Assembly (NCBI GenBank): GCA_017626305.1
Contig: JAGAIW010000181.1
Location: 4,283 to 68,282 of the forward strand
Direction of reading: 5' to 3'
Source: Clostridia bacterium
GTDB taxonomy: Bacteria > Bacillota > Clostridia > Christensenellales > Borkfalkiaceae
Length of the DNA stretch: 64,000 nucleotides
The notes below the pieces were generated by a model. The model ran no database searches, was not told the origin of the DNA, and saw only the letters and a list, made by a program, of their open reading frames with translations. Shown piece after piece: positions 8,692 to 24,373 of this stretch; positions within the stretch are counted from its first letter, which is position 1, and every line of letters starts with the position of its first letter. The position numbers and the translations under genes were made by a program.

Positions 8692-8720
8692 TTGACAACC
8701 TGCCGTTTTTGTGTTAAAAT
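8692..8720 (+). promoter_or_regulatory. SigA-type promoter (extended -10) of the 3368-aa gene
   Basis: TTGACA (8692-8697), 17 nt, TGtTAAAAT (-10 hexamer 8715-8720), in an AT-rich region about 120 nt upstream of the ATG at 8840. Confidence 0.55.
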
Positions 8721-8839
8721 ATTGAAAATAGTATCGTTGTATGCTTTTATCGTTGGCGATTTTTTTCAAACGAAAGGATTGAAACGTGAAAATACGAACG
8801 GTATAAAAACGAAGAAATTTAAAGCAAAAGGAGGCTTTT

Positions 8840-11800
8840 ATGAAGTTTAAGAAACGTTTGGTTGGCTTAATGCTTGCAACCGCTCTCACGACGTTTACCT
8901 TTGCATTGTCGTCTTGCGGTGGAGAAGAAAACCAGTCAAGTTCGACATCTTCCGAAAGCACTACGTCGGAAACGGTAACCTTCGAGAAAACGGGCGAGTA
9001 TTATTGCAGTACGGGCAGCGCGGAATATACGTTGACCATTAACGAAGCGGATTGCAGCTTGGTTATGGGCGAAACGACGCTGACCGGTACGTACTCAAAA
9101 GACGGAGATACGATTAAAATCGTCTTTTCCGATGGTTCGCTTGGCTCGGTTACGGTGGACGGTACGGTTTTAACCTTGAAAAAAGGGGAAGAAACGTATA
9201 CCTTCTATGAAAATATCGAACATACCGTAACGTACGAAACGAATGGTGGTTCTGCCGTAGCGGCGACAACGGTCGTCAACGGTAAGGTGACGGCGAAACC
9301 CGCTGATCCTACGAAAGACGGACATTGGTTTATCGGCTGGTATGCCGACGAAGATTTCAAAGCTTTATATGACTTTGATAATCCCGTTATGGCAAATACT
9401 ACGCTGTATGCACGCTTTGTCGAAGATTTAGGGAAAACGGAATTCTCCGTTAATTTCGTAGTCGACGGAGCAGCGGCGTTCGAGCCCGTAGAAACGAAGA
9501 ACGGCGTTGTATTCAACACCGAACTTCCCACGCCCGAAAAGGACGGCAAGGTATTTGCAGGTTGGTGGGTAAGTAACTACGGTGACGAAAATAAGCTTAC
9601 ATATAAATATAATGAAGACAAGCTTGGCGAAGACACCACGCTTTTTGCCGTTTGGGAAGATGCTGAAAACCTGAACGTTTCCGTAAAATCTACGGGTATT
9701 TCGTGGAGCAACGTCGGCGTCAACAGTATTTATAAATACGTCATTAAAAATGCAAGCGGTGCTACCGTTTACATGGGTACGCCTACGCCTGAAACGAGCG
9801 AAGCGTTTGATTTCAGCCAGTTTGCGGCGGGTGAATATACCGTAGAAGTTTCCGTCAGCGGCACGAACGTTAAGCAGACGGCGTATTACAAAAATAAAGC
9901 GCTTGCTAAGGTTAGCAAGTTTGAAATTTCTGCCGACCGCGTTTTGACCTTCAACGCTATCGATAACGCAACGAAGTATATCGTTACGGTAGATTGCGGC
10001 GACGAAAACCACACGCATACGTCGGTGGAAGTGACCACTCCTGCATTCGACTTTGCAAACTGCGCAATGCAAGAAGAAGGTATCAAGTTTAGCGTAAAGG
10101 CAGTAGCTGACGGCTATATGGATTCCCTTGTAGCAGAACACAGCTTTGAAGCTCGTCTTGCGGAAGTGACGAATCTCGTAATCAATCAAGATACGGAAAT
10201 CGTGACATGGGACGCGGTAGAAAATGCAGAAGGCTACGTTGTAGAAATCTTCGACGACGGCACGTCGCTTGGTAAGAAGACGGTTAGCGAAACGACCGTT
10301 TCGCTCAGAGGATTGTCGGGTAACTTGGAAGTAAAGGTATATCCCGTTGCAAGAGCGTATAATTCTTCTGAATTGAAGGTAGCTACGTTCAACAATACAA
10401 GACTGGCGATTCCTATGGACGTTAAGCTTGAAGGACATTCCGTTACTTGGACTGCCGTTGATAACGCTACGGGCTATAAGCTTACGATCGGCGGACAAGA
10501 ATACACCGTTTCGACGAATAAGCTTGATTTAGAAGACGAGCATTTCATCAACAACGTTTCGGAAATCTACGTACAGGCACTTTGCGCCGACGAAACGAAG
10601 ACTTCCTTGAAATCTGATTTGTTTACCGTTCGTTCGGATAACGTCATGTCGGATACGCTTGTTTATAACAACGGCGAAATCTCGTGGGATGCCGTTCTCG
10701 TTGCTGCGAAATACGGTATTATCGTAGGCGACGGTGAAGAATATTTCGTAAACGACGCCAACAAAGCGGCGGTTGTATTTACGCAAAAGGGCGACGTCGT
10801 TATCAAGGTTCGTTGCTATAACGCGCAAGGCGAAACGTCCGAATGGGTAAGTAAAACGGTTAAAGTATACGAAGTCGTTCTCGAAGCGGAAGGCGGGGTT
10901 TCCGTGGCTTCCGATTATAAGGCGGAAGGGGACGTTTACACGTTGCCTGAAACGACGAGAACGGGTTACAAATTTGTCGGTTGGTACGATATCCCCAACG
11001 GCGTAACGACGGGCAATAAGCATGAAAATACGTTTACCTTTGGTAAAGCAGACTTGACGTTGTATGCAGGTTGGACTTCCGAAAATTATACCGTTACGTT
11101 AAATCTTGGCGATAACGGCATACTTGCTGAAACGACGGCAACGGTCGCTTTCAACCAAGACTTCAAATTGGCTGTACCTAAGTCTAAGGACGCAACCAAG
11201 ATTTTCGCAGGTTGGAGAACGCAACCTAACGGTCAAGGGGTAGAATATACCGATTTGAACGGTGATTCTAAGGTAAAATGGTTGCATAGCGATAATGAAA
11301 CCGTTTTGTACGCAAGCTGGTATAGCATCTTTAACTTTACTGAAATTAAGTTGGGTGAAGAAACCGGTTGGGCAGTAACGAAGGCGAACGGTATTTACTA
11401 CGTTGATACCGTAGAAATCCCCGCCGTTTACGACGGACTTCCCGTATTGTCGGTAGACACTAGCGCGTTTAAAGGTTGCACAAACTTGAAGACAATCCGT
11501 ATTCCCGACACCATTCGCTACGTCGCAATGGGTACGGACGGCGGTAGCACGACGGGTTCGGCGTTCGAAGGCTGTACGATGCTTGAACAAGTAGTCGTAT
11601 ATTGTGTAGACGGTGCTGCGCACGACGAGCACGACGTCGTTTATGAGTCGGACGCGTCGGGTGCGTTGTTCCGCTATACGGAAACGAATAAGGAAATCGT
11701 ATACCTGCCTATGACGGCTACGGGTACGTATTACATTCCCGAAGGCGTAACGTCTATTCCTTTCGGTGCGTTCCGTAACGCAAAACTGACGAAAATCAGC

Positions 11801-14800
11801 ATTCCTGCGTCGGTAACGAATATCGCATCGGCTGCATTCGCGGATTGCTATTATCTTACCGATCTTGAATTCCGCGCGGCGGAAGACGGGCAATCTGAGA
11901 AAGCGTTGACGATTGATATGGCGTTTGAAGGCTGTATGAGTTTAGAAGAACTTACGCTTCCTGCACGTCTTGTTAATTTGAACTTCGATATCTTCTCTGA
12001 TTGCGATTTAACGAAGATTAAAATTACGGGCAATGCAGTAGATAATGCCACAAGTGCGGCGTATTACGATATTGACGGCGTGCTTTGTCAAGGTGACGCA
12101 ATCGTTTATGTACCAAAGGGCAGAGCGGGTGCGTATACCATTCCTAGCGTTATTAAAACGATTGGTCAAGAAGCGTTTGCAAGATGCGTAAGTTTAACGA
12201 AAGTCGTTATTCCTGGACACGTAACGTTGATTGAGAAAAATGCATTCTTGAATTGTACAGGGATAACCTCGGTCGTATTCCAAGGCGACACAGACTCTCC
12301 TGATTTAACCATTCAAGCATCGGCGTTCTATTACTGTCGTGAATTAACGTCAGTTACGTTGCCTGAAAATCTTACTTATTTGGCGAAGAACGCGTTTGGT
12401 AAAACGACAAAATTGACGGAAGTTATTCTTAACGTTGGAGAAAATGCGACATTAGAGACTGGCGCATTTGCTGATAACAATGAAACCTACTATGTAGTTG
12501 AGTTGTATCTCGGTGCAAACGTTAAAGACGTTGATATTGCATCCGTATTTGGTTCGCAGAAGCTTTCGCGCGTATACGTTGACGCTGGAAATACAAATTA
12601 TTCTGACGTTGACGGGGTCTTGTTCAATAAAGAAGCGACGAAGATTGTGTACTTCCCGCTTGCACGTGGTGGACACTACGACGTGCCTGAAGGCGTAACG
12701 GAAATTTCCGCAAATATTTTTAGAAACAAAAAAATCACATCGGTTAGTATTCCTACGTCGGTTAAGGTAATTGATGCTTATGCGTTCTGCAATTCCGCAA
12801 TCTCTTCCGTTGAGTTCAAAAAAGGCGGCACGGAAGCTTTGGTTATTGGAATATCCGCATTTGAAAACACCAAATTAACGGAATTGGAGATCCCTGCCCG
12901 CGTGACAGCGATTGGTGATTATGCGTTTGCAAGATTGACAAAGCTTAACAAATTGACGTTTGAAACGGTAGAGGGTGAGCAAAAAGGTTTGACAATCGGC
13001 GAATACGCTTTTGCTATGTATGACGCAAAAGGACAAGGGCGATTCCCTGATGACTATAGTATTACAAGCAGCATTGACACGTCTTTGATTACGTCGGTTG
13101 TGCTCCCTGCACGCTTGGATAAAATTGAAGCGTATGCTTTCTATTATTCCGCAATTGAAAATCTCGTTATTCCCGAAGGCGTAGAAACGATTGAAAACTA
13201 CGCGTTTGCGAAGAACGCTTCGCTTAAAACCGTTTCATTGCCTGCTACGTTGACTACGTTAGGCGCAAGAAATGCGGATAATGAACAAGTAAGCATGTAT
13301 GTCTTCGACGCATGTGCTGCGCTTGAAAGCATTACGGTTAGCGGTAGCAATGAAAATTACCTTACCAAAAACGGCGTATTGTATCTTGAAAAAGACGGCG
13401 CGGCAACGGAGCTTTTCTTCTCGCCGAAGAAAAATGTGGGTACGAATGGCGTAGTTGATATTCCTAAGACGGTAACCAAGATTTGGGATAAAGCCTTCTA
13501 TGAAAATAAGGGTATTACGTCTATCACGTTTAGTGACGGTTTGGACGGTGCGTTGGATATCGGTTCAGACGTATTCAGCGGCTGTACGACGTTGGTAAAC
13601 GTGCAGCTTCCTTACGGGGTTTCCAAGATTGGTACGCAAATGTTCTATAACTGTTCCGCATTGCAATCCATCGAAGTCCCCGCAAGTGTTTCGCTTATTG
13701 AAGTAAACGCATTCGCAGGTTGTAAAAATCTGTCGTCGTTGACGTTTGCCGAAACGCCGCAGGGTAAAGAAGAAGTCGCGCTTGAACTGGCTGATTGGTA
13801 TCAGACTGCGCTGAAAAACGGCACGCTCACGACGTATGTAGATAATTATGTGTTCAAGGATTGTGCCAAATTGACGTCGATTGATCTTCCTTCGAGAACG
13901 ACGAAGATTGGTTCGTATGCGTTCTGGAAAACGAATATTACGTCGATTAGTATTCCCGAAGACGTTACGTCTATCGGTGAAAGCGCATTTGCTGCGGCGC
14001 CCAAATTGCAAACGGTGGTGTTTGACGGCAACGGCGTAACTGAAATTCCCAAGAAAGCATTTGAAAACTGCTATGCGTTGACGAATATCAGCATTCCCGC
14101 TTCCGTCAAGTCGATCGGTGAAAGAGCGTTCGTCGGCTGTAATGCGCTTACGTCAGTTACCTTTGCGGAAGGCTTGGAAACGATTGCGCAGCAAGCGTTC
14201 TATAAAGTTCCGTTGCAGACGCTTTCCTTGCCCGCGTCTCTTACGACGATTGGTGACAGCGCGTTTATGTACGGTCAGTTTGCGACGATTAGCTTCGCAG
14301 CAAATTCCAAGCTTGCAACTATTGAAGCCACGGCTTTTGCAGGCAACGAAGCCTTGACGACTGTTATTATCCCTGCGTCTGTTAAGACGATTGGGTTGGA
14401 AGCGTTTGACTCCTGTTCCGCATTGTCGAGTGTGACGTTTGGTGAAAATAGCGTGCTGGAAGAAATCAAAGACTACGCGTTTGCGGGTTCTGCCCTTACG
14501 ACGTTTGCCTTCCCTGAATCGACGGCTACGCTTTTGCTTGGCAAAGGCTTGTTTGCGGATTGTACGCAATTGGGAACGTTGCACCTTTCGGGGGCAGTCA
14601 ACGAATTTACGGGCGTTTTGGAAGCTTGCACGTCTATAAAATCCATAACGGTATCCGAAACCAGTACGTTATATTCGGCTTCGGCTGGTAGCCCGATTTT
14701 GTACAGCAAGGATAAAAAGATTATTTACTACGTATTCGGTACTTTGGAAGGCGAAGTCGTTCTTGACGCTAATGTTACCAAAATTGACGAAATGGCATTC

Positions 14801-17800
14801 AAAGATCAAACGGGTATTACGTCAGTAACGATTAAAGACAAGGTAGTGGAAATTGGCGAAAGCGCGTTTGAAGGCTGTACCAATCTCGCAACGCTGACTT
14901 TCGACGTTGTAGAAGGCACGGAATTTGCGTTGACGACGATTGGCGAAAAAGCCTTCTACGGTACGGCAATCACGTCGCTTACTATTCCTAAGAACGTAAC
15001 GACGATCGGTAAAGAAGCGTTTAAGAACTGTAAATCGCTGACGACCTTGACGTTGAATAGCGCGTTGGAAACGGTTGGCGCAGGCGCATTCTATACCAAT
15101 ACGGCTCTCGCAAACCTTACACTTCCCGAAGGACTTACTATAATCGGGGAAAGTATGTTCTACGGCTCTGCTTTGACTTCCGTTACCATTCCTGCGTCCG
15201 TGAAGACAATCGGTAAACAGGCGTTCTACACCAGTAAATCGCTTGCGACGATTGATTTTGCGCCTAACGCGCAAGTTGAAGAAATCGGCGACTTTGCCTT
15301 TGCGAGTACGGCAATTACAAGTATGACGATTCCTAACACGGCGACGACGCTGGGCAAGTCTGTTTTCCAAGAATGTAAGAGTTTGACGAGCGTAACGTTG
15401 CCCGAAGGTATCGAAAAGATTCCCGATACGTTCTTCAAGAATTCGGGCCTTACTGCGTATGAAATTCCGAGCACGGTTAAAACGCTTGGCGCGAACGTCT
15501 TCTATGGCACGGCGTTGAAGTCGATTACCATTCCGGAAACGATTAAAGTAATTCCTGACAGCGCATTCTATGGTTGTAAGAGCCTTGTTACGGTTGATCT
15601 TCCCGCAGGCTTAACGGAAATAAAAGATAAAGCGTTCTACAATTGTACGACACTTAAAAACGTAAACTTTTCTACTGAGGCTACGGCTACGGAAAGGAAG
15701 CTGGGCGCTAACGTGTTCTACGGTTGTACGTCGCTTGTATCTATCACGTTACCTTCCAACCTGACGGAGATTGGCGCTTCGACCTTCTCAGGTTGTACGA
15801 AGCTTGCTTCTATCAATATTCCCGAAAGCGTAAAGAAACTTGGCAACAAAGTATTCGAAAAGTGTACGGCGTTAACGTCGGCAACGCTCGGCGGTGAGGC
15901 ATTGAAGTCTATCGGTACGGATATGTTCTATAACTGTAAGCTTTTGGCAACGGTCGTGCTCCGTGAAGGCTTGACTATGCTCGGAGAAGAAATGTTCGGG
16001 CAATCGACGGCAACTTACAGCTGTCAAAAACTGAAAACTATCAATTTCCCTTCGACGTTGACTTCTATTCCTAAAATGGCGTTCATGAATACCATCTTAA
16101 CGAGCGTCGATTTGTCGGGGACGAAGGTCACTTCGATTGGAGAGAAAGCGTTTGCCGCTTCTTCTACTACGTATGCAAAGCTTACGACGTTGAAATTGAA
16201 TCAAATTTGCACGTCTATTGGAGCGAATGCATTTGAAAAGCAGGGCTTGAACGGTACGTTAGACCTTTCCAAGGTAACTACGCTGGGCGCGTCTGCGTTT
16301 GCGTCGTGTACTTCTCTTGACGGCGTCGTTCTTGGCTCGACTTTGAGCTCGGTTGGCGGTAGCGCATTCAAAGGCTGTACGTCGCTTAGTAGTCTTACTC
16401 TTCCCGAAGGCTTTAATCTGACGGGTAAAGTCGGTACTGCGGATAACGGTTCGTTAATGTTTAACAATTGTACGGCGCTTGTTAACGTTACCTTCCCCAA
16501 ATCCATGACGAACGTTCCTGCGTCAATGTTTAATGGGTGTACGAAGCTTGTTCCGTCTACGTTGGAAAACGTAGTTTCGATTAGTTCTACGGCGTTTAAG
16601 GGCTGTAAGGCTATTACGACGGCTAACCTTGTGAATGCAGCGACGATAGGTGACGCGGCGTTTGAAGGTTGTACGGCGCTTGCAAACGTAACCCTTTGCG
16701 ATAAGCTGACTTCGCTTTATGCTACCTTCTCCGGTTGTACCGCACTTACGGAAATCAGTTTACCGAACAGCCTTACCGTGCTTTACGACGACGTATTTAG
16801 AAAGACGGGCTTGAAGAGTATTGATATGTCTAACACGCAAATTACGCAGTTTGCATATTACGGCTCCAATCCGCTGTTGAGTTCTACTTACACGTTTGGA
16901 GAATGTGAACAATTAACAGAAGTCAAATTACCTAAGGCGTTGGAACTCATTGGTCAAGCGGCGTTTAAAGATTGTACGGCGTTGACGAAGATTCAACTTC
17001 CCGATACCGTAACGACGATTGGCGATAATGCGTTCAACGGCGCGGCGCTTTCGGGTACTATGACGTTGCCTGCTAACCTTGCTGAATTAGGTAAAAATGT
17101 TTTTGCTGGCTGCAATATCCGTGAATTTGGCGTTGCGTCCGCAAATGAGAAATTTGCCACGATTGGTGGTTGGTTGTTGGATGCTGAAAACGTGGTAGTG
17201 GCTATATCGACGAAGACGTTGGAAGACGGTGTATTGACAATTCCCGAGGGCGTCGCGGCATTCCCTGCTGCTCCTGGCAAATCGACTGCGTTGCTTAACA
17301 AGTTTGATGGGATTGAAGAAGTCATCATTCCTTCGACAATGTCTAAGATACCCAAGTATATGTTTGCTGGTATGACAAGCTTGACGACTGTTCGTATTCC
17401 TGAAAATATCTTGCGTATTGAAACGGATGCGTTTAGCGGCTGTTCGGCTCTTGTAAATCTTTCGTTTGACGAAGGTGAAAATGAATTGGTATTCGGTAAT
17501 GAAGAAAGTGGCGGAGCAACACCTGGTAGTTATTTCTATCAATGTACGGCGTTGGAAAGTGTAACGCTGCCCAACCGAATCAAGGTTCTCGGTAGAACGG
17601 CTTTCAGCAACTGTACTAATTTGAGCAACGTCGTTTTGCCTGATTCGTTGGTGGAAATCGGAGATGACGCTTTCTTGAAGACTGCACTTACTACGATTGA
17701 CTTAAAGAACGTGGAAATTATCGGCGAAGGTGCGTTTGAAAACCTGGGTCTTACCGCTTTGACGCTTCCCGCTTCGGTGAAAACCGTTAAATCGGACGCG

Positions 17801-18946
17801 TTTAAGGGCTTGAAGATTACAGAGCTCACCATTCCCACTACGGTGGAAACTTGGGGTTCGAACATATTTGTCGGTTGTAAGCAATTGACGGATATTACCC
17901 TTCCCGAAGGTATTACCAACCTTGGCTTCGGTATGTTCCAAAATTGTACAGCCTTAGAGCAAGTGACTCTTCCTTCTACGTTAAAGCATCTCAATGCGTC
18001 GTTGTTCAGCGGCTGTACGGGCTTTACTTCGTTTAATATTCCAGAAGGTATTGAAATCCTTGGTGACCCGACGACGTGGGTCGTAGGGGAAGCAAACGTA
18101 CAAGGCGTAAAGAGCAATCAAGCGGCATCCGTATTTAGTGGCTGTACGAACCTTACTTCGGTAACGTTGCCTAGTACGCTTAAAGTAATCGGTGACAAAG
18201 CCTTTAACGGTTGCTCGAAGCTTACCAGTATCGTTATTCCCGAAACGGTTGAATACATTGGCTCGCAAGTATTTGCAGGTACGAAAATTTCTTCCATCAC
18301 GGTTACGAATCCCGACGTCGTGCTGTATGGTGCGTTTAACGGTATGAAAGAGCTTACCACGGTAGCTTTGCCTAATGAGATGACGAATATCGGTTACGAC
18401 ACGTTTAACGGGTGTACCAAGCTTGCAAGTATTACGTTGCCGACAAGTATTACGACGGCTCAAGTGGTTTATAGAAGTAGTAACGGTAGTTCGCTCATAA
18501 CGAGCGAAGGACAGAACTTTATGGGCTGTACCGCTTTGACGTCTATCGTCATTCCTGGAACAATGCAAAAAGTGCCTGCAAGCATGTTTAAGAACTGTAC
18601 CGAACTTGCTAACGTGGTACTTTCGGAAGGCGTAAAAATAATCGCTAAAGACGTATTCTACGGTTGTACGGCGTTGGAGACGGTAGATATTCCTTTGACC
18701 TTAGATGAGATTGGATCGCAGGCATTCTATAACTGTAAGAATATTCAGACGCTTACGTTGCCTAAGCTTTCCTACGTTGCTGAGAAGGCGTTCTACTATT
18801 GGACGGCTACGCAGACAATTAATACGGCTGCAAATGAACGTTATGTTCTGAAAAACTGGAATTATACGAATAGCTATAGCGCTTGGGATACTTCCTGTGC
18901 GGCAGTTATTAACTACGGATACAAGCCTGCTGCGGAAGAACCCTAA
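8840..18946 (+). CDS. giant surface lipoprotein: Flg_new (Listeria-Bacteroides) repeats + Fn3-like modules + very long BspA-type leucine-rich-repeat (LRR_5) array
   Basis: Uninterrupted 10,107-nt ORF (3368 aa) with AAGGAGG SD 5 nt upstream. Signal peptide and lipobox (MKFKKRLVGLMLATALTTFTFALSS|CGG). Flg_new signatures include HTVTYETNGGS...GHWFIGWYADEDF...LYARF, KVFAGWW, GYKFVGWYD and KIFAGWRT. Five W..V..A..Y modules are present (ISWSNV..YKYVI, LTFNAIDNATKYIV, VTWDAVENAEGYVV, VTWTAVDNATGYKL, ISWDAVLVAAKYGI). The rest follows the ..IP.SVT.IG..AF..C..L pattern. Confidence 0.9.
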   Translation: MKFKKRLVGLMLATALTTFTFALSSCGGEENQSSSTSSESTTSETVTFEKTGEYYCSTGSAEYTLTINEADCSLVMGETTLTGTYSKDGDTIKIVFSDGSLGSVTVDGTVLTLKKGEETYTFYENIEHTVTYETNGGSAVAATTVVNGKVTAKPADPTKDGHWFIGWYADEDFKALYDFDNPVMANTTLYARFVEDLGKTEFSVNFVVDGAAAFEPVETKNGVVFNTELPTPEKDGKVFAGWWVSNYGDENKLTYKYNEDKLGEDTTLFAVWEDAENLNVSVKSTGISWSNVGVNSIYKYVIKNASGATVYMGTPTPETSEAFDFSQFAAGEYTVEVSVSGTNVKQTAYYKNKALAKVSKFEISADRVLTFNAIDNATKYIVTVDCGDENHTHTSVEVTTPAFDFANCAMQEEGIKFSVKAVADGYMDSLVAEHSFEARLAEVTNLVINQDTEIVTWDAVENAEGYVVEIFDDGTSLGKKTVSETTVSLRGLSGNLEVKVYPVARAYNSSELKVATFNNTRLAIPMDVKLEGHSVTWTAVDNATGYKLTIGGQEYTVSTNKLDLEDEHFINNVSEIYVQALCADETKTSLKSDLFTVRSDNVMSDTLVYNNGEISWDAVLVAAKYGIIVGDGEEYFVNDANKAAVVFTQKGDVVIKVRCYNAQGETSEWVSKTVKVYEVVLEAEGGVSVASDYKAEGDVYTLPETTRTGYKFVGWYDIPNGVTTGNKHENTFTFGKADLTLYAGWTSENYTVTLNLGDNGILAETTATVAFNQDFKLAVPKSKDATKIFAGWRTQPNGQGVEYTDLNGDSKVKWLHSDNETVLYASWYSIFNFTEIKLGEETGWAVTKANGIYYVDTVEIPAVYDGLPVLSVDTSAFKGCTNLKTIRIPDTIRYVAMGTDGGSTTGSAFEGCTMLEQVVVYCVDGAAHDEHDVVYESDASGALFRYTETNKEIVYLPMTATGTYYIPEGVTSIPFGAFRNAKLTKISIPASVTNIASAAFADCYYLTDLEFRAAEDGQSEKALTIDMAFEGCMSLEELTLPARLVNLNFDIFSDCDLTKIKITGNAVDNATSAAYYDIDGVLCQGDAIVYVPKGRAGAYTIPSVIKTIGQEAFARCVSLTKVVIPGHVTLIEKNAFLNCTGITSVVFQGDTDSPDLTIQASAFYYCRELTSVTLPENLTYLAKNAFGKTTKLTEVILNVGENATLETGAFADNNETYYVVELYLGANVKDVDIASVFGSQKLSRVYVDAGNTNYSDVDGVLFNKEATKIVYFPLARGGHYDVPEGVTEISANIFRNKKITSVSIPTSVKVIDAYAFCNSAISSVEFKKGGTEALVIGISAFENTKLTELEIPARVTAIGDYAFARLTKLNKLTFETVEGEQKGLTIGEYAFAMYDAKGQGRFPDDYSITSSIDTSLITSVVLPARLDKIEAYAFYYSAIENLVIPEGVETIENYAFAKNASLKTVSLPATLTTLGARNADNEQVSMYVFDACAALESITVSGSNENYLTKNGVLYLEKDGAATELFFSPKKNVGTNGVVDIPKTVTKIWDKAFYENKGITSITFSDGLDGALDIGSDVFSGCTTLVNVQLPYGVSKIGTQMFYNCSALQSIEVPASVSLIEVNAFAGCKNLSSLTFAETPQGKEEVALELADWYQTALKNGTLTTYVDNYVFKDCAKLTSIDLPSRTTKIGSYAFWKTNITSISIPEDVTSIGESAFAAAPKLQTVVFDGNGVTEIPKKAFENCYALTNISIPASVKSIGERAFVGCNALTSVTFAEGLETIAQQAFYKVPLQTLSLPASLTTIGDSAFMYGQFATISFAANSKLATIEATAFAGNEALTTVIIPASVKTIGLEAFDSCSALSSVTFGENSVLEEIKDYAFAGSALTTFAFPESTATLLLGKGLFADCTQLGTLHLSGAVNEFTGVLEACTSIKSITVSETSTLYSASAGSPILYSKDKKIIYYVFGTLEGEVVLDANVTKIDEMAFKDQTGITSVTIKDKVVEIGESAFEGCTNLATLTFDVVEGTEFALTTIGEKAFYGTAITSLTIPKNVTTIGKEAFKNCKSLTTLTLNSALETVGAGAFYTNTALANLTLPEGLTIIGESMFYGSALTSVTIPASVKTIGKQAFYTSKSLATIDFAPNAQVEEIGDFAFASTAITSMTIPNTATTLGKSVFQECKSLTSVTLPEGIEKIPDTFFKNSGLTAYEIPSTVKTLGANVFYGTALKSITIPETIKVIPDSAFYGCKSLVTVDLPAGLTEIKDKAFYNCTTLKNVNFSTEATATERKLGANVFYGCTSLVSITLPSNLTEIGASTFSGCTKLASINIPESVKKLGNKVFEKCTALTSATLGGEALKSIGTDMFYNCKLLATVVLREGLTMLGEEMFGQSTATYSCQKLKTINFPSTLTSIPKMAFMNTILTSVDLSGTKVTSIGEKAFAASSTTYAKLTTLKLNQICTSIGANAFEKQGLNGTLDLSKVTTLGASAFASCTSLDGVVLGSTLSSVGGSAFKGCTSLSSLTLPEGFNLTGKVGTADNGSLMFNNCTALVNVTFPKSMTNVPASMFNGCTKLVPSTLENVVSISSTAFKGCKAITTANLVNAATIGDAAFEGCTALANVTLCDKLTSLYATFSGCTALTEISLPNSLTVLYDDVFRKTGLKSIDMSNTQITQFAYYGSNPLLSSTYTFGECEQLTEVKLPKALELIGQAAFKDCTALTKIQLPDTVTTIGDNAFNGAALSGTMTLPANLAELGKNVFAGCNIREFGVASANEKFATIGGWLLDAENVVVAISTKTLEDGVLTIPEGVAAFPAAPGKSTALLNKFDGIEEVIIPSTMSKIPKYMFAGMTSLTTVRIPENILRIETDAFSGCSALVNLSFDEGENELVFGNEESGGATPGSYFYQCTALESVTLPNRIKVLGRTAFSNCTNLSNVVLPDSLVEIGDDAFLKTALTTIDLKNVEIIGEGAFENLGLTALTLPASVKTVKSDAFKGLKITELTIPTTVETWGSNIFVGCKQLTDITLPEGITNLGFGMFQNCTALEQVTLPSTLKHLNASLFSGCTGFTSFNIPEGIEILGDPTTWVVGEANVQGVKSNQAASVFSGCTNLTSVTLPSTLKVIGDKAFNGCSKLTSIVIPETVEYIGSQVFAGTKISSITVTNPDVVLYGAFNGMKELTTVALPNEMTNIGYDTFNGCTKLASITLPTSITTAQVVYRSSNGSSLITSEGQNFMGCTALTSIVIPGTMQKVPASMFKNCTELANVVLSEGVKIIAKDVFYGCTALETVDIPLTLDEIGSQAFYNCKNIQTLTLPKLSYVAEKAFYYWTATQTINTAANERYVLKNWNYTNSYSAWDTSCAAVINYGYKPAAEEP
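11411..18805 (+). repeat. coding tandem array of BspA-type LRR units (~22-25 aa each) inside the 3368-aa ORF
   Basis: The unit (I/V)P.(S/G)VT.IG..AF..C..L(T/K)(S/T)(V/I) recurs from VEIPAVYDGLPVLSVDTSAFKGCTNLKTIRIP to LDEIGSQAFYNCKNIQTLTLP. I estimate on the order of 100 units from length divided by unit size; I did not count them. The DNA copies are diverged. Confidence 0.8.
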
Positions 18947-18996: not shown

Positions 18997-19034
18997 TCCG
19001 CCTGCGGTTTATGCCGCAGGCGGACGTTTTGTTT
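18997..19034 (+). terminator. intrinsic terminator after the 3368-aa gene
   Basis: 11-bp GC-rich stem TCCGCCTGCGG (18997-19007) / CCGCAGGCGGA (19014-19024) with a 6-nt loop, followed by CGTTTTGTTT. Confidence 0.8.
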
Positions 19035-19211: not shown

Positions 19212-20327
19212 ATGAACGAAAAGTTATTTGAAAGTTACTATGCTCGTTTAGCGAAAGAAGGCTTTTTGAAAGCGCTTTTTTGGGGACTGATTGTCGGTTT
19301 TTCCGCAATGCTGATTAGCAGTTTTATTTTTTGGTTTATCGGTTTTTCCTATCCGTGGATAGCCTTTATCATTGCTGCGGTCGCTGCGGCAGGGGCAACG
19401 CCGATCTTTTACTTTGCAATATTCCGTCCTACTTCCCATGACGTGGCGTGCCGTATCGACGCGCTTGGCTTGGAAGAACGGTTTTTGACCATGCATCAGT
19501 TGGAAGGAGATAACTCCTATATCGCTATGCGTCAAAGAGAAGACGCAAAGGCGGCGTTAAAGTCCGTTTCGGCAAATTTGATTAAAATTGCCGTTTCCAT
19601 TCCGCTTGTTATCGCGGTTGCTTTTACCGCGCTTGCAGGCTCGGGTATGGCTACGGTGTCCGTTTTAGCGGCGTCGGGATATATTCCCCCCGCAAGCGAA
19701 ATCATTCCCGATCCGTTTGAACCCGAACCCGTTTTCTATGAAGTGGAATTTGTAGAAGAAGGCGAAGGCATGATTGAAGGGGATATTTTCCAACTCGTTG
19801 AAGAAGGCAAAAACATCAAAGAAGTGGTTGCCGTTCCCGACGAAGGCTGGTTCTTGTATGAATGGCATTGGGAAATCGCCGGTGAAACGTTTTCTCTTAC
19901 CGAAACGGAAGTGTTCTTCATTGAAGATATGTCCGTAGACGGGCCCTTGACGATTTACGCGACGTTTGCCGAAGCAGAAGCTGGCGACGGCGAAGGTGAA
20001 GGCGACGGCGAAGGTGCGGAAGGCGAAGAAGGGGAAGAAGAAAGCGACGAGCAAAAGCCGCAAGACCCCGAAGACGGAGAACAAAAGCAAGAAGACGGCA
20101 AGGAAAGCGAAATGCCCCCGCCTGAATCCGAAGATGAAAACGATAAGCCGCCGCAGGGCAGCAATCGTTACGACGATAAAAACCAAATCATCAATAACGA
20201 GACCTATTACGGCGACGAATACAACGACGCAAAACAGGGTGCGTTAGATGAAATGGAACAAAGTGAAGAGATTTCCGACGAAATCAAGGATATCGTCAAG
20301 GATTACTTCGACAACATTGAAAAATAA
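19212..20327 (+). CDS. membrane protein with an N-terminal TM hairpin, a third TM span, a Flg_new-like module and a highly acidic low-complexity tail; first gene of the MoxR operon
   Basis: 371-aa ORF with AAGGAG SD. Hydrophobic spans: FWGLIVGFSAMLISSFIFWFIGF, WIAFIIAAVAAAGATPIFYFAIF and IAVSIPLVIAVAFTALAGSGMATVSVLAA. A Flg_new-like segment reads FYEVEFVEEGEG...PDEGWFLYEWHW...LTIYATF. The tail reads AEAEAGDGEGEGDGEGAEGEEGEEESDEQKPQDPEDGEQKQEDGKESE. Confidence 0.75.
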   Translation: MNEKLFESYYARLAKEGFLKALFWGLIVGFSAMLISSFIFWFIGFSYPWIAFIIAAVAAAGATPIFYFAIFRPTSHDVACRIDALGLEERFLTMHQLEGDNSYIAMRQREDAKAALKSVSANLIKIAVSIPLVIAVAFTALAGSGMATVSVLAASGYIPPASEIIPDPFEPEPVFYEVEFVEEGEGMIEGDIFQLVEEGKNIKEVVAVPDEGWFLYEWHWEIAGETFSLTETEVFFIEDMSVDGPLTIYATFAEAEAGDGEGEGDGEGAEGEEGEEESDEQKPQDPEDGEQKQEDGKESEMPPPESEDENDKPPQGSNRYDDKNQIINNETYYGDEYNDAKQGALDEMEQSEEISDEIKDIVKDYFDNIEK

Positions 20328-20361
20328 AAATAAATAAAATTTTTTGGAAGGATAGATAAAA

Positions 20362-21495
20362 ATGGTAACAGAAAAAGATATCGAGCAATTTTGCGAACAA
20401 TGTAAGAACATATTCGAACAAGTTTCCCGCGACGTTATCGGTCAGAAGGAAGTTGTTGAAGGAACGATTATCGCCATGATCGCAGGCGGTAACGTCTTGT
20501 TGGAAGGTGTGCCTGGGGTTGGTAAAACCCGTTTGGTTAGAAGCTTGGGTCGCGTATTTGACCTGCCCTTCTCTCGTATTCAGTTCACGCCCGACTTGAT
20601 GCCTGCGGACGTTACGGGTACGAATATTATCGTAAAAGATGAAAACGGAAATTCTTCGTTTAACTTCCAACCCGGTCCTATTTTCAGCAACATCATTCTT
20701 GCCGACGAAATCAACCGTGCAACGCCCAAAACGCAATCCGCGCTTTTGGAAGCCATGCAAGAACACACCGTTACGGTTATGGGTGTTTCGAGAAAATTGA
20801 ACGAACCGTTCTTCGTTTTGGCTACGCAAAACCCGATCGAACAAGACGGTACGTATCCTTTGCCCGAAGCGCAAATGGACCGTTTCATGTTTAAGTTGAT
20901 CGTGCCTAACCCCAGCCTTGACGAGCTCATGCAAATTGTCGATATGACGCAAAAGACGATGGCGGAAGTTGCAGAATGTGCTTGTAACGCCGAACAGTTG
21001 TTAAGAATGAGAGAAACGGCAAATCAAATTCCCGTAGCAACGGAAGTTTTGCGCTATGCCATGATTATGACCAGCGCAACCCATCCCGACAGCGAATGTG
21101 CGTCCGAAGCGGCGAAGAAATACGTCCGCGTGGGCGCTTCGCCCCGTGCAGGACAGGCTCTCATCTCGGCGGCAAAGGTTATGGCGCTTATCAAGGGCAG
21201 ATTTAACGTTGCGTACAGCGATATCAACGAATTAGCGTTGCCTGTATTGCGCCACCGTATCAAGCTCAACTTTGAAGCGGTAGCCGAACGCGTTTCGGCG
21301 GACGACGTCGTTAAGATGATTGTCGAAGAAGTGAGCAAAAAACACAAGGGCGGTGCGGTAAAACCCGTACAACCCGTAGCAGTTGAACCCGAAGCGGAAG
21401 CGGCGGTTGCGGAAGAAAACGTTGCGCCCGAAACGACGGAAACGGCGGAAGAACAACCCAAGAAAGAAAAGCGTAAATTATTCGGGAGAAAATAA
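20362..21495 (+). CDS. moxR: MoxR-family AAA+ ATPase (AAA_3)
   Basis: 377-aa ORF with Walker A LLEGVPGVGKT, RIQFTPDLMPADVTGT, Walker B ILADEINRATPKTQSALLEAMQE and HTVTV. It carries an extra ~55-aa Pro/Glu/Ala-rich, Lys-terminated tail. Confidence 0.92.
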   Translation: MVTEKDIEQFCEQCKNIFEQVSRDVIGQKEVVEGTIIAMIAGGNVLLEGVPGVGKTRLVRSLGRVFDLPFSRIQFTPDLMPADVTGTNIIVKDENGNSSFNFQPGPIFSNIILADEINRATPKTQSALLEAMQEHTVTVMGVSRKLNEPFFVLATQNPIEQDGTYPLPEAQMDRFMFKLIVPNPSLDELMQIVDMTQKTMAEVAECACNAEQLLRMRETANQIPVATEVLRYAMIMTSATHPDSECASEAAKKYVRVGASPRAGQALISAAKVMALIKGRFNVAYSDINELALPVLRHRIKLNFEAVAERVSADDVVKMIVEEVSKKHKGGAVKPVQPVAVEPEAEAAVAEENVAPETTETAEEQPKKEKRKLFGRK

Positions 21496-22394
21496 TGAAG
21501 GGATCTTATTTGAACGACCAGTTTTTCAGTCGTTTAGAAGCGTTATCCTTAAATTTGAAATCGAACCTGTCGGGGTATTTCGGCGGCAAACATCTCGTTA
21601 GTTCTTATGGACAAACGGTGGAGTTTGCCGATTTCCGTGAGTACCAGCTTGGCGACGATATCCGCCGTATCGACTGGAATTTGTACAGTCGTTTCGAGAA
21701 GTACTTTCTTAAATTGTTTACGGACGAAAGGCAAATGCAAATTCAAATCTTTTTGGATTGCTCGGCGTCAATGGGAAAGGACGACCCGAAGAAATCGGGT
21801 TATGCATTAGCCACGGCGGCTGCGCTCGGCTTTTTGGCTGTGCAAAATATGGATAAGGCGTCTTTCCATATCATGCGCGGAGAAAAGTCGGAAAATCCGT
21901 ACGGAACGCTTATCGGTAAGAACGCGTTTTTCAGAGCTATGAGCGAGTTGGAGAACGTGCAATTTGAAGACGACGTGGACATTGAGACGTGCGTAAAAAG
22001 CTGTCCTGACACTTCGTCGCGCAACGGCTTAACCGTGATTATTTCCGACTTTTTAACGGAGAGCTCTTGGAAAAAAGCGGTAGAGTATTTGTGTTATAAA
22101 AAGCGTCAAGTACTGATGGTGCAAATATTAACCCCCGAAGAATTAGATCCTTCTTACGACGGACGCGTTAGCTTGATTGACGCGGAGTCGGTGGATTTGT
22201 CTGACGATAGAAATATGAAAATGCGAATTACTCGCAGTATGCAAAAGGCTTATCAAGAAGCCTTACGCGATTTTAAGGAAGATATAAAGACTTTCTGTTC
22301 AAAACGCAACGTAGATTTTATTTCCATTTCTACGGACGCTCCTATTGAAAGAGTGTTGTTTAACGAATTGTTGAAAGCAGGTATTATGGCATGA
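21495..22394 (+). CDS. DUF58-family protein (MoxR-associated, VWA-like fold)
   Basis: 299-aa ORF. FADFREYQLGDDIRRIDWNLYSRFEKYFLKLFTDE matches the conserved DUF58 motif. TAATG overlap with the moxR stop. Confidence 0.88.
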   Translation: MKGSYLNDQFFSRLEALSLNLKSNLSGYFGGKHLVSSYGQTVEFADFREYQLGDDIRRIDWNLYSRFEKYFLKLFTDERQMQIQIFLDCSASMGKDDPKKSGYALATAAALGFLAVQNMDKASFHIMRGEKSENPYGTLIGKNAFFRAMSELENVQFEDDVDIETCVKSCPDTSSRNGLTVIISDFLTESSWKKAVEYLCYKKRQVLMVQILTPEELDPSYDGRVSLIDAESVDLSDDRNMKMRITRSMQKAYQEALRDFKEDIKTFCSKRNVDFISISTDAPIERVLFNELLKAGIMA

Positions 22395-24373
22395 CATTAT
22401 TAGTTCCCTTAGGCTTATTAGGTCTGTTGGGCGTTGTGGCGTTGATTATTATTTACATAATCCGCCCGAACTATCAACAGAAATTTATTTCCAGTACGTA
22501 CATATGGAAATTAAGCCTTAAATATAGAAAAAAAAGAATACCGACCAGCAAACTGCGCAATATCTTATTGATATTGTGTCAGGTTTGTATTCTTTTGGCG
22601 TGTACGGCAATTTTAACAAAGCCCGTCCGCGTACTTAAAACGGTAGTTGATGAAACGGAAATCATAGCGATCATTGATTCATCCGCAAGTATGCGTTCGA
22701 AAATGGGCGAAACGTCGCGTTTCGACCGCGCTTTGTCCCTTGCGCAAGAAGACGTGGAAGACGTACTCAATAACGGCGGTATAGCGTCCGTTATTCTTGC
22801 GGAAAACCATGCGTCGTTTGTGCTTGAACGTATAACGGCGGCAGAAAAGACCGCGGTGGAAGACGTATTTGCGACTTTGTTTGAAGACGGCTGCGCATAC
22901 GGTTCGTCGGACGTAAAGGGTGCAATCGCGCTTTGCGAAGACGTGCTTTTGCAAAATCCTTCGGCGAAAATTTGTCTGTATACGGACACGGAATACGCGT
23001 ATATCCCCGAAGGGATTACCGTAGAAAACGAAAACGTAGTCGAAGAAGACGAGTGGAACGCAGCGATTTTGGACGCACGCACCGAGTTGAATAGTAACTA
23101 TCACACGTTTATCGTCGACGTAGCGTACTACGGAAATCAAACCAAGGGCGTCGAATTGACGCTTGATATCATCAATGCAAACCCCGAAGATGAAAACGGC
23201 GGGGGTATTATTACGCTTAAACATAATATCGTTTTTAATGCAACGTCGCAAAAACAAATTATTTTTATTGCGGATACGGCGTATAGCGAAATGTTTGAAG
23301 GTATCGTGATGGAAGAAGACGATAGCGTAGAATACGTTATTTTGTATGAAACGGATAAGGTCTATTCCTATAAGACGGTATATTTTTCTATCGATACGGG
23401 TGCGGATGCAATCTCTATCGATAATACCTTCAATTTATACAACGGTCAAAAAGAAATCGTAAAGGTACAGTACTCTTCGGCAGGAGCAAACCCCTTCTTC
23501 CGTGGTGTACTGCTTACTATGCAAGCGGCTTATGCAAAAAAATGGGATATCCGTATCACCGAAGTTAAGACGGGGGAAGAACCTGCAATCGAAGGGTTTG
23601 ATTTGTACGTTTACGAGCATGAAATGCCCGAAGAAACGCCCAACGACGGTTTGGTATTTTTCGTCAATCCCGATTCCGTACCTAAGGGCGCGGATTTCCG
23701 TATTGACGATTTGAGAAGAACGCTGAATAACAGCGTCGACCTTACCGAAGAGATGGAACATCCGATTTTGCGTCACGTTACCGCTTCGAATATAACGGTT
23801 AGTCAATATTCGGCAATTTCGGCAAGCGATTCTTACGAAACGTTGGTTACCTGCGACGGAAACCCCGTATTGCTTACGCGCAACGACGCGGATTGTAAGG
23901 TCGTTCTTATGCCGTTCAGTTTGCACTATTCCAACCTGCCGGTATTAAAAGACTTCCCGTTGTTGATGTGTAATATTTTTGAATATTACTTCCCTTCGAC
24001 GTTTGAAAAATCTTCTTTTGAAGTATACGAAACGGTTGAACTCAAAGCAAGGGGGGAAGAACTCACCGTCAAGCTTGGCGACCAACTCGTTTGCGAGCCG
24101 TTTACGCAATTCCCCGCAACGTTGAAATTTGATCTTCCTGGGAACTATATTTTAGAGCAAACGACGTTTACGGGCAAAGCGGTGAAAGAATATCTCTACG
24201 TAAAACTGCCCGCAGCGGAAAGTGACATTTGGCAAAAGGACGGCGTTTTGGAAAACCCGTATAAGGTAGAAGAAGAATCCGATTACTTTGAAGATTTGTT
24301 ATTCTATATCGCCATGGCGCTTGTAACGTTGCTCTTTATCGAATGGTGGCTGCAAAGCCGCGAAACGATGTAA
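22391..24373 (+). CDS. BatA_N (N-terminal double-TM) / VWA-domain membrane protein with a C-terminal TM span
   Basis: 660-aa ORF with ATGA overlap with the DUF58 stop. N-terminus MTLLVPLGLLGLLGVVALIIIYIIRPNYQQ plus a second span ILLILCQVCILLACTAILT. MIDAS-like IIAIIDSSASMRS (DxSxS). C-terminal span LLFYIAMALVTLLFIEWWL. Confidence 0.85.
   Translation: MTLLVPLGLLGLLGVVALIIIYIIRPNYQQKFISSTYIWKLSLKYRKKRIPTSKLRNILLILCQVCILLACTAILTKPVRVLKTVVDETEIIAIIDSSASMRSKMGETSRFDRALSLAQEDVEDVLNNGGIASVILAENHASFVLERITAAEKTAVEDVFATLFEDGCAYGSSDVKGAIALCEDVLLQNPSAKICLYTDTEYAYIPEGITVENENVVEEDEWNAAILDARTELNSNYHTFIVDVAYYGNQTKGVELTLDIINANPEDENGGGIITLKHNIVFNATSQKQIIFIADTAYSEMFEGIVMEEDDSVEYVILYETDKVYSYKTVYFSIDTGADAISIDNTFNLYNGQKEIVKVQYSSAGANPFFRGVLLTMQAAYAKKWDIRITEVKTGEEPAIEGFDLYVYEHEMPEETPNDGLVFFVNPDSVPKGADFRIDDLRRTLNNSVDLTEEMEHPILRHVTASNITVSQYSAISASDSYETLVTCDGNPVLLTRNDADCKVVLMPFSLHYSNLPVLKDFPLLMCNIFEYYFPSTFEKSSFEVYETVELKARGEELTVKLGDQLVCEPFTQFPATLKFDLPGNYILEQTTFTGKAVKEYLYVKLPAAESDIWQKDGVLENPYKVEEESDYFEDLLFYIAMALVTLLFIEWWLQSRETM

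What the first reader, a model, noticed from the sequence alone, without database searches (positions are those of the whole stretch)
8840..18946. Single 10.1-kb ORF encoding a 3368-aa lipoprotein with a ~7.4-kb LRR array
Seen: there is no in-frame stop over 10,107 nt. The gene has a strong SD, its own consensus promoter (8692-8720) and its own terminator (18997-19034). The order of parts is lipobox, two Flg_new repeats, five Fn3-like modules, two more Flg_new repeats, then roughly 2,460 aa of BspA-type LRR units. That is on the order of 100 units, estimated from length rather than counted. There is no C-terminal anchor, so the only visible attachment is the N-terminal lipid.

Inference: this would be an extremely long, solenoid-like adhesin or binding surface projecting from the membrane. 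Arrays of this length are also prone to assembly collapse or expansion.
Basis: partly seen in the sequence, partly recalled or inferred. Interest (0 to 1): 0.6.

Follow-up and report, generated by a model that had tools for sequence, protein, structure and literature searches.

The report
Giant leucine-rich-repeat surface lipoprotein gene
This is a real, intact 10-kb gene for a very long lipid-anchored surface protein of an uncultured gut Clostridia bacterium: a stalk of small beta-modules carries about 92 leucine-rich repeats, hundreds of related gut species have the same design, and it is an oversized member of a known adhesin class, not an assembly error.

Summary
Window 8840-18946 (+) is one open frame of 3368 aa with a Shine-Dalgarno site, a near-consensus promoter and a strong terminator.

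The protein runs in this order:
- lipoprotein signal peptide (Cys26) and a Ser/Thr tether;
- 2 Flg_new modules, 5 FN3-like modules, 2 more Flg_new modules;
- about 92 BspA-type (LRR_5) units;
- a C-terminal cap with no anchor.

AlphaFold2 predicts a beads-on-a-string stalk. It predicts one rigid solenoid for the LRR tile tested.

The worry about assembly collapse is not supported. The units are diverged (25% identity to each other), there is no DNA repeat over 40 nt, and the genome holds no paralogous DNA. Orthologues from independent assemblies are colinear and 3370-3426 aa long. Four species-level clusters of relatives show no unit-number variation.

The family has more than 500 protein clusters in small-genome gut Clostridia (Ca. 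Scatosoma, Ca. Borkfalkia). One copy per genome usually sits, as its own transcription unit, just upstream of a membrane-protein/MoxR/DUF58/BatA-VWA cassette. This scan had already noted that link on other genomes.

The function is inferred to be long-reach binding or adhesion. This is a new member of a known kind, of moderate interest.

The parts
8692..8720 (+). Sigma-70-type promoter-like site, TTGACA-17-TAAAAT with extended TG
   Evidence: 11 of 12 positions match, the best site in 8400-19400.
8830..8834 (+). Shine-Dalgarno GGAGG, 5 nt before the ATG
   Evidence: read directly from the sequence.
8840..18946 (+). Coding sequence of the 3368-aa giant LRR lipoprotein (P0001)
8840..8917 (+). 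Type II signal peptide, MKFKKRLVGLMLATALTTFTFALSS-C, with lipobox LSSC and Cys26
   Evidence: The lipobox Cys is kept in nearly all orthologues. Lgt and LspA genes are present.
8918..8974 (+). Ser/Thr-rich disordered tether (aa 27-45)
   Evidence: pLDDT is below 50 for aa 1-47.
8975..9217 (+). Small eight-stranded beta-domain (aa 46-126), weakly lipocalin-like
   Evidence: One search shows the strands at 52-124. One search gives DUF5640/DUF4923 matches, E 0.03-0.05, below cut-off.
9218..9664 (+). Two Flg_new (Listeria-Bacteroides / InlB B-repeat) modules, aa 127-275
   Evidence: 72.4 bits and 25.6 bits; matches the InlB B-repeat 2y5p.
9665..10879 (+). Five FN3-like modules (aa 276-680) with a recurring W..V..A..Y motif
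   Evidence: all-beta, pLDDT 80-94. (Foldseek matches to gp130, fibronectin FN3 tandems and titin). Pfam is not significant.
9995..10069 (+). Invariant C386-x4-H391-x-H393 ... C408-x-M410 cluster in the second FN3-like module; a candidate metal site or disulfide
   Evidence: Invariant in 54-sequence and 26-sequence alignments. The motif is in 112 of 121 family proteins.
10880..11329 (+). Two more Flg_new modules (aa 681-830)
   Evidence: 40 bits (also Flg_new_2, 29 bits) and 14.9 bits (weak).
11330..18787 (+). N-cap plus about 92 BspA-type LRR_5 units (aa 831-3316). The array is decorated by beta-hairpin inserts of the form 'N..Y...DGVL....L...P....G.Y.IPEGVT.I' near aa 930-975, 1075-1105, 1253-1290, 1505-1545, 1945-1980 and 2770-2805
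   Evidence: Tile aa 1230-2010 folds with pLDDT 91.4 and pTM 0.79. Foldseek matches 4fs7, 4h09, 4cp6 and 4gt6.
18788..18946 (+). C-terminal cap (AFYYWTATQTI...W...Y.Y), short acidic end and stop codon; no anchor
   Evidence: the W-T-x-x-Q-T-I ... W ... Y cap motif is shared by family members.
18997..19034 (+). Intrinsic terminator: 12-bp GC-rich stem followed by a T-run
   Evidence: -33.9 kcal/mol, z -7.6. At least half of 16 related loci have a strong (<= -15 kcal/mol) hairpin followed by a T-run at the same place.
19212..27259 (+). Conserved downstream neighbours: 371-aa membrane protein with an acidic tail, MoxR AAA+, DUF58, BatA_N-VWA and a double-VWA protein
   Evidence: Synteny with the giant gene.
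27311..30238 (+).
   Evidence: Its C-terminal part is found at the same position in related loci.

Best explanation
This is an intact, separately transcribed gene for a giant cell-surface lipoprotein. The organism is an uncultured, small-genome gut Clostridia bacterium, of the same GTDB genus as a MAG named Candidatus Scatosoma sp.

Shown:
- A type II signal peptide with lipobox Cys26.
- A disordered Ser/Thr tether.
- A beads-on-a-string stalk of ten small beta-modules: one lipocalin-like, two Flg_new, five FN3-like, two Flg_new.
- About 92 BspA-type LRR_5 units. In the 781-aa tile tested they are predicted to form one continuous rigid solenoid decorated by beta-hairpins.
- A C-terminal cap and no second anchor.
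- The design is conserved in more than 500 protein clusters at 2300-3800 aa. Its length is stable within four species-level clusters of relatives.
- One copy per genome usually lies directly upstream of a membrane-protein/MoxR/DUF58/BatA-VWA cassette.

Inferred:
- After Lgt/LspA processing the protein hangs from the outer leaflet of the cytoplasmic membrane.
- The stalk, roughly 30-40 nm if extended, carries the solenoid through and beyond the cell wall.
- The long LRR surface acts as a multivalent binding surface (adhesin) for host, dietary or microbial ligands. Its scaffold residues are conserved while its exposed residues diverge quickly.
- It probably works together with the neighbouring MoxR/VWA envelope module and the other LRR/Flg_new proteins of the locus.
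For: - ORF and signals.
- Domains: LRR_5 at 1387 bits; Flg_new; FN3-like fold.
- LRR tile: pLDDT 91.4, pTM 0.79. It matches solved LRR_5 surface proteins 4fs7, 4h09, PcpA 4cp6, 4gt6 and TpLRR 6mlx.
- Lipoprotein pathway: lgt and lspA are present.
- Family: 541 hits to the N-terminal 860 aa, with full-length relatives of 2291-3817 aa that nearly all keep the lipobox.
- Colinearity: indels are mostly single units.
- Unit identity: 25% within the protein against 41-58% between orthologous units.
- Length stability: stable in four >=90% clusters.
- Exposed LRR positions are only 15-37% identical among orthologues whose stalk is 52-67% identical.
- Synteny: the order giant gene, mem371, MoxR, DUF58, VWA, VWA, LRR protein is kept in 13 distinct loci, spanning at least five GTDB families plus an ENA metagenome contig, while the upstream genes differ.
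- Co-occurrence: 17 genomes have both the giant N-terminus and mem371; each is found in 21 of 301 genomes of the order.
Against: - No ligand, expression or localisation data exist.
- Poor conservation of exposed LRR residues fits relaxed constraint (a spacer or coat role) as well as diversifying ligand binding.
- A terminator and a 160-420 nt gap separate the gene from the MoxR cassette in most loci.
- Seven giant paralogues lie away from any cassette.
- Some mem371 copies have no LRR gene upstream. The functional link is therefore not obligate.
- Only 781 of about 2460 LRR residues were folded. No coordinates were available to measure curvature or to check continuity across the whole array.
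Confidence: 0.6

Rival explanations
1. The protein is mainly a structural envelope or coat element, acting as a spacer, shield or surface-layer substitute, and not a ligand-specific adhesin. The solenoid would provide length and rigidity, and its exposed residues would be free to drift.
For: - Scaffold positions (F2, C5, L8, P14) are 75-96% conserved while exposed positions are 15-37% conserved.
- Length is held constant within species and nearly constant among close species.
- LRR_5 frames make up about 2-3% of this 2.55-Mb genome.
- The gene is a fixed neighbour of an envelope MoxR/VWA module.
Against: - There is no SLH, CWB or other self-assembly or wall-binding domain.
- Among the solved and named relatives retrieved (PcpA 4cp6, TpLRR 6mlx, HupY/LrrG), those with a described function are, from general knowledge, binding proteins.
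- Several paralogues per genome with different surfaces fit varied ligands better than one coat.
Confidence: 0.2
2. The protein is a substrate-capture arm of the neighbouring nutrient-acquisition genes. It would bind host or dietary (glyco)proteins and hold them for the S8 cell-envelope protease (35514-43079, which has its own LRR_5 array), with uptake by the adjacent Opp-type ABC importer.
For: An S8 protease with LRR_5 and an Opp ABC transporter lie 16-33 kb downstream on the same strand.
Against: The conserved immediate neighbour is the MoxR/VWA cassette, not the protease. Linkage of the giant gene to the protease was not tested across relatives here.
Confidence: 0.1
3. The array is an assembly artefact: a collapsed, expanded or chimeric join of paralogous LRR genes in a fragmented MAG.
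For: The MAG has 189 contigs, and many short contigs end inside LRR_5 frames (for example C17, C167, C96, C80, C70, C64, C32). LRR genes do break this assembly. Read mapping could not be run.
Against: - No repeat over 40 nt and no tandem repeat in the gene.
- No other DNA in the genome matches it.
- The gene lies inside a contig of at least 68 kb.
- Independent assemblies give colinear orthologues of 3370-3426 aa.
- Related species clusters reproduce identical lengths in many samples.
Confidence: 0.02

Closest known systems
BspA-type LRR surface proteins (Pfam LRR_5): Tannerella forsythia BspA, Treponema LrrA/TpLRR (6mlx), pneumococcal PcpA (4cp6), and structural-genomics LRR proteins of gut Bacteroides, Eubacterium and Faecalibacterium (4fs7, 4h09, 4gt6)
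   Same: They share the same 22-23 aa unit (AF..C..L..I.IP..V..IG). They share the mid-solenoid 'DGVLy.k....L..yP' hairpin, which sits mid-chain in 4h09. They share the same fold and a cell-surface location.
   Different: This protein has about 92 units, against roughly a dozen to two dozen in the solved or studied proteins. It has a lipid anchor plus a ten-module FN3/Flg_new stalk. It belongs to a fixed orthologous family in gut Clostridia next to a MoxR/VWA cassette. No ligand is known.
Streptococcus agalactiae LrrG/HupY adhesin (NCBIfam NF047961)
   Same: Best NCBIfam match; a Gram-positive surface protein made of LRR_5 units.
   Different: The score of 525 bits is far below the 1250-bit equivalog cut-off, and the match is repeated alignment of units only. 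Length, stalk and anchor differ.
Listeria internalins, especially the InlB B-repeat
   Same: Flg_new modules match the InlB B-repeat (2y5p, 1m9s). The general logic of an LRR binding domain combined with beta-module spacers on a Gram-positive surface is the same.
   Different: The LRR class differs (LRR_5, not internalin-type LRR with an Ig-like inter-repeat domain). The order is reversed, with the stalk first and the LRR distal. The anchor is a lipid, not LPXTG or GW. The size is far greater.
Bat (Bacteroides aerotolerance)-type MoxR/DUF58/BatA-BatB VWA operons and their spirochaete counterparts (Leptospira bat, Borrelia BB0170-BB0176)
   Same: The cassette directly downstream has the same MoxR, DUF58, BatA_N-VWA composition.
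   Different: Published Bat loci are not described with LRR lipoproteins. No specific function was demonstrated for the Leptospira Bat proteins (PMC3557215). The Borrelia VWFA proteins are described in PMC5700661. No paper held BspA, leucine-rich repeat and MoxR together. The cassette is a neighbour of this gene, not part of it.
Giant bacterial surface proteins (Reva & Tummler 2008 'Think big'; West-Roberts et al. 2023 preprint, 10.1101/2023.11.21.568195)
   Same: A gene over 5-10 kb encoding a repeat-rich protein with a presumed adhesion role. The preprint notes LRR domains on giant Clostridia proteins.
   Different: This protein is much smaller than the giants of several tens of thousands of residues treated there (one example in the passage retrieved is 25,000 aa). 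It has a different, very regular architecture.

Membership tests
BspA-type leucine-rich repeat proteins (Pfam LRR_5, PF13306) | Profile match above the gathering score | tested here: met
   1387.5 bits against a cut-off of 27.7, in 23 stretches.
BspA-type leucine-rich repeat proteins (Pfam LRR_5, PF13306) | LRR_5 solenoid fold like the solved members | tested here: met
   AF2 tile pLDDT 91.4, pTM 0.79. Foldseek 4fs7 TMt 0.59 and 4h09 TMt 0.53, probability 1.00. phmmer to 4fs7 E 6.5e-40.
BspA-type leucine-rich repeat proteins (Pfam LRR_5, PF13306) | Binding to host or microbial ligands | not testable with these tools
   Needs binding assays.
Bacterial lipoproteins (type II signal peptide) | Positive n-region, hydrophobic h-region, lipobox [LVI][ASTVI][GAS]C | tested here: met
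   MKFKKR / LVGLMLATALTTFTFA / LSS-C26. The Cys is nearly invariant in orthologues.
Bacterial lipoproteins (type II signal peptide) | Processing enzymes Lgt and LspA encoded in the genome | tested here: met
   PF01790 at 151 bits and PF01252 at 91.8 bits in G000.
Bacterial lipoproteins (type II signal peptide) | Actual diacylglyceryl modification and cleavage | not testable with these tools
   Needs mass spectrometry or globomycin sensitivity.
Flg_new / Listeria-Bacteroides repeat (PF09479) | Profile match above the gathering score | tested here: met
   aa 128-191 at 72 bits and aa 683-743 at 40 bits. The other two modules score 25.6 and 14.9 bits, below the cut-off of 27.
Fibronectin type III domains | Pfam fn3 profile match | tested here: not met
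   The best is E 0.1 for module 3.
Fibronectin type III domains | FN3-like beta-sandwich fold in tandem | tested here: met
   AF2 pLDDT 80-94. Foldseek matches to gp130, fibronectin FN3 tandems (8peq_A TMt 0.56) and titin FN3.
LRR adhesin HupY/LrrG (NF047961, equivalog) | Score above the equivalog cut-off | tested here: not met
   525 bits against 1250.
Mycoplasma gliding protein Gli349 (NF045861) | Score above the cut-off | tested here: not met
   264 bits against 1750; only LRR units align.
Conserved MoxR/VWA + giant lipoprotein locus of gut Clostridia (noted earlier by this scan) | Giant LRR gene directly upstream of mem371, MoxR, DUF58, BatA-VWA, VWA | tested here: met
   Met in the window and in 12 further distinct loci. 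It is not obligate: 7 unlinked paralogues exist.
Conserved MoxR/VWA + giant lipoprotein locus of gut Clostridia (noted earlier by this scan) | Co-transcription or physical interaction with the cassette | tested here: inconclusive
   A terminator and the cassette's own promoter-like site lie between them. Interaction is not testable here.

The most novel reading that the evidence does not exclude
The giant LRR lipoprotein is the dedicated extracellular partner or client of the adjacent Bat-like membrane-protein/MoxR/DUF58/VWA cassette. Together with the two downstream LRR/Flg_new proteins it would form one ATP-dependent cell-surface apparatus. The VWA/MoxR module would anchor, assemble or remodel a roughly 90-rung LRR solenoid, far longer than any LRR structure retrieved in the PDB searches here. 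The invariant Cys/His/His/Cys(Met) cluster in the stalk would serve as a metal-dependent contact.
Probability: 0.3. Interest if true: 0.7.

Novelty: new member of a known kind. Interest (0 to 1): 0.38.

Why it matters
BspA-type LRR proteins are a main class of surface adhesins in host-associated microbes. This gene shows how far the design can be stretched: about 92 units on a lipid-anchored stalk, kept at a fixed length in hundreds of uncultured gut Clostridia species with genomes of only 1.2-2.6 Mb.

Such a costly, conserved gene should be central to how these bacteria contact their surroundings.

Its fixed position next to a MoxR/DUF58/VWA cassette gives a concrete candidate partner for a cassette type whose function has stayed unclear since the Bacteroides Bat operon was described.

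For genome annotation, the result shows that long LRR arrays of this kind are reliable in short-read MAGs when their units are diverged.

Tried and rejected
2. Genome-contig scan with the mem371 alignment. It gave only one locus, the Ca. Scatosoma sp. MAG. Synteny was then obtained through the genome search and the fetch from genomes.
3. Acidic C-terminus as a conserved VWA/MIDAS ligand. Rejected: only 46 of 121 family proteins have two or more acidic residues in the last 8.
4. Hairpin motifs as borders of independent LRR domains. Not supported: the tile spanning three of them has pTM 0.79, and the same motif sits mid-chain in crystal structure 4h09.
5. First structure job with 54 full-length rows. 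It was too large and was repeated with 26 rows.
6. Literature. No paper joined BspA, leucine-rich repeat and MoxR, and none joined Borkfalkia with LRR. The chicken-gut paper that names Ca. Scatosoma holds the term only beyond the text kept.
7. HupY/LrrG and Gli349 membership. Rejected on score.
8. Earlier-scan look-up by sequence found nothing. The look-up by words found the locus type on other genomes.
Full report
**1. The observation**

Window 8840-18946 (+) is a single ORF of 3368 aa with no in-frame stop. GGAGG lies 5 nt before the ATG. A promoter-like site at 8692-8720 (TTGACA-17-TAAAAT with extended TG) matches 11 of 12 positions and is the best in the region. A 12-bp GC-rich hairpin with a T-run at 18997-19034 folds at -33.9 kcal/mol, z -7.6 against shuffles. 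The next gene has its own promoter-like site at 19127-19155. By sequence signals the gene is therefore monocistronic.

**2. Anatomy**

- The N-terminus MKFKKRLVGLMLATALTTFTFALSS-C is a type II signal peptide with lipobox LSSC.
- The genome encodes Lgt and LspA.
- Residues 27-45 are Ser/Thr-rich and disordered (pLDDT below 50).
- An eight-stranded beta-domain follows at aa 46-126.
- Pfam finds Flg_new at aa 128-191 (72 bits) and aa 683-743 (40 bits). Weaker copies lie at aa 202-271 (25.6 bits) and aa 751-806 (14.9 bits). The first copy matches the InlB B-repeat in the PDB.
- The five modules between them (aa 276-680) are not significant in Pfam. The AlphaFold2 model of aa 1-860 is all-beta with mean pLDDT 84.7. 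Its pTM is low (0.48), as expected for beads on a string. Foldseek matches tandem FN3 arrays: gp130, fibronectin FN3 tandems and titin.

The LRR part scores 1387 bits against Pfam LRR_5, cut-off 27.7. Segmenting on the invariant Phe gives about 92 units between aa 876 and 3316. 51 of them are canonical 22-23 aa units. Six inserts of the type 'N..Y...DGVL....L...P....G.Y.IPEGVT.I' interrupt the array. The same motif sits mid-chain in the crystal structure 4h09.

An AlphaFold2 model of aa 1230-2010 spans three of these inserts. It has pLDDT 91.4 and pTM 0.79. That argues for one continuous rigid solenoid with hairpin decorations, not separate domains. Its best structural matches are the solved BspA-type proteins 4fs7, 4h09, PcpA 4cp6, 4gt6 and TpLRR.

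The C-terminus is a cap motif (W-T-x-x-Q-T-I ... W ... Y.Y) shared by the family. There is no anchor.

**3. Is the array an artefact?**

- Tandem Repeats Finder reports nothing, and the longest direct DNA repeats are 20-40 nt, with copies 60-86% identical to the reference copy.
- Units within the protein are on average 25% identical to each other.
- No other DNA in the 2.55-Mb, 189-contig MAG matches the gene, apart from 150 nt at 70% identity.
- The gene is internal to a contig of at least 68 kb.
- Twelve orthologues from other assemblies (52-67% identical in the stalk, 40-60% in the array) align colinearly. Their indels are mostly exactly one unit (22-23 aa) and lie mostly in the C-terminal half.
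- Orthologous units are 41-58% identical.
- In four >=90%-identity clusters of relatives (921, 77, 36 and 29 members), the full-length proteins listed from many samples have the same length. The values are 3088, 3327-3331, 3301-3327 and 3087-3089 aa.
- In the one cluster examined in detail, the small differences are start-codon calls and 2-4 aa indels, not units.

The array is therefore old, not homogenised, and stable within populations. The caution about collapse or expansion is not supported.

Two caveats remain. Many short contigs of this MAG end inside other LRR_5 genes, so paralogues do fragment the assembly.

**4. Family and organism**

Searching the first 860 aa found 541 proteins. The listed ones are 2291-3817 aa long (median 3014) with the same Pfam make-up, and nearly all have a lipobox. 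Sources name them only 'leucine-rich repeat protein', from Clostridia MAGs and from Candidatus Borkfalkia faecipullorum.

The closest genome with a name is a Candidatus Scatosoma sp. MAG, placed in the same GTDB genus as the window's genome.

In a sample of 301 genomes of the order, 21 have the N-terminal architecture (16 of 150 genera). Some have two to four paralogues. This genome has a second one on contig C17 and a fragment on C130. LRR_5 frames sum to roughly 2-3% of this genome (my own sum).

**5. Context**

The upstream genes are a deo nucleoside-catabolism operon. Downstream lie, in order:
- a 371-aa membrane protein with an acidic tail (mem371);
- MoxR;
- DUF58;
- BatA_N-VWA;
- a double-VWA protein;
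- a 1726-aa Flg_new protein;
- an S8 protease with LRR_5;
- an Opp-type transporter.

The order giant gene, mem371, MoxR, DUF58, VWA, VWA, LRR protein is kept in 13 distinct loci, spanning at least five GTDB families plus an ENA metagenome contig. The upstream neighbours differ. Four more mem371 copies have a contig-truncated LRR frame directly upstream. One of these is a second pair in this genome, on C144.

The giant N-terminus and mem371 are each found in 21 of 301 genomes, and 17 genomes have both. These genomes are related, so this is not a statistical test.

The link is not obligate:
- Seven giant paralogues lie away from any cassette.
- A few mem371 copies lack an upstream LRR gene.
- At least half of the 16 related loci have a strong hairpin followed by a T-run after the giant gene, and the gaps are mostly 160-420 nt.

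I therefore call it a conserved neighbour, not an operon member. This scan has described the same locus type on other genomes. My synteny analysis was done independently of those notes and agrees with them.

**6. How it most likely works**

Shown: the architecture, the family, the stability and the neighbourhood described above.

Inferred from established knowledge of lipoproteins and LRR proteins:
- After lipidation the protein is held at the outer face of the membrane.
- The ten-module stalk, at about 3-4 nm per module, could span a Gram-positive-type wall.
- The solenoid, with about 92 rungs at about 0.48 nm each, has a contour of roughly 44 nm. It would offer a very long multivalent binding surface.

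Scaffold positions (F2 96%, L8 82%, P14 77%, C5 75%) are conserved among orthologues. Exposed positions are only 15-37% identical, well below the stalk's 52-67%. This fits either fast-evolving ligand surfaces or relaxed constraint. For that reason a coat or spacer role is kept as the main rival.

**7. Comparison and novelty**

It is a member of the BspA-type LRR_5 class by profile and by fold. It is not HupY/LrrG or Gli349, because both scores are far below their cut-offs.

It differs from studied members in four ways: size (several times more units), the lipid anchor, the FN3/Flg_new stalk, and its fixed neighbourhood.

Full-text searches found no description of this family or of an LRR/MoxR link. 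Giant Clostridia proteins with LRR domains are mentioned in passing in a preprint on giant genes. The Bat-type cassette has no established function (PMC3557215, PMC5700661).

Verdict: a real and ordinary-in-kind but unusually large surface protein, and a new member of a known kind. Its main added value is the family-wide stability of the array and its place in the conserved MoxR/VWA surface locus.

Noticed in passing
window 9995-10069 (aa 386-410): In the second FN3-like module, C386, H391, H393 and C408 are invariant, and G387 and M410 nearly so, across 54 orthologues at 34-67% identity. The motif C-x4-H-x-H-x(8-20)-C-x-M occurs in 112 of 121 family proteins, although His is only 0.4% of the protein. 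This is a candidate metal site or a disulfide plus His pair.
   Followed up: partly
window 19212-20327, and G000 contig C144 (locus L034): The 371-aa membrane protein with an acidic tail always sits between the giant LRR gene and MoxR in linked loci. This genome has a second, contig-truncated copy on C144, again directly downstream of an LRR_5 frame. The giant/mem371 pair therefore seems to have duplicated as a unit.
   Followed up: partly
G207 contig C1:85149-115474 (loci L014, L015): Two giant paralogues (3322 and 3300 aa frames) lie in tandem directly upstream of the mem371/MoxR/DUF58/VWA cassette in one related genome.
   Followed up: no
G276 contig C2 (L026) and G124 contig C3 (L030): These are variant cassettes. 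In L026, mem371 is followed directly by BatA-VWA, with no MoxR or DUF58 in between. In L030 the order is DUF58, mem371, BatA-VWA, with no LRR gene upstream.
   Followed up: no
G000, many short contigs (C17, C167, C96, C80, C70, C64, C32, C22, C3, C154, C115, C97): Many short contigs of this MAG consist largely of LRR_5 open frames that run to the contig ends. The LRR gene family is a main cause of fragmentation of this assembly and is under-counted.
   Followed up: partly
protein P0125 (relative, cluster of P0042): One member of a 921-member cluster is 2551 aa long and ends in an unrelated Arg/Pro-rich tail. This looks like a frameshifted or truncated allele of the giant gene in some sample.
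   Followed up: no
window aa 1399-1411 (nt 13034-13072): This is the only low-confidence loop in the LRR tile (pLDDT below 50). It lies in an over-long unit, and three orthologues (P0003, P0004, P0006) have a 20-aa deletion there.
   Followed up: no
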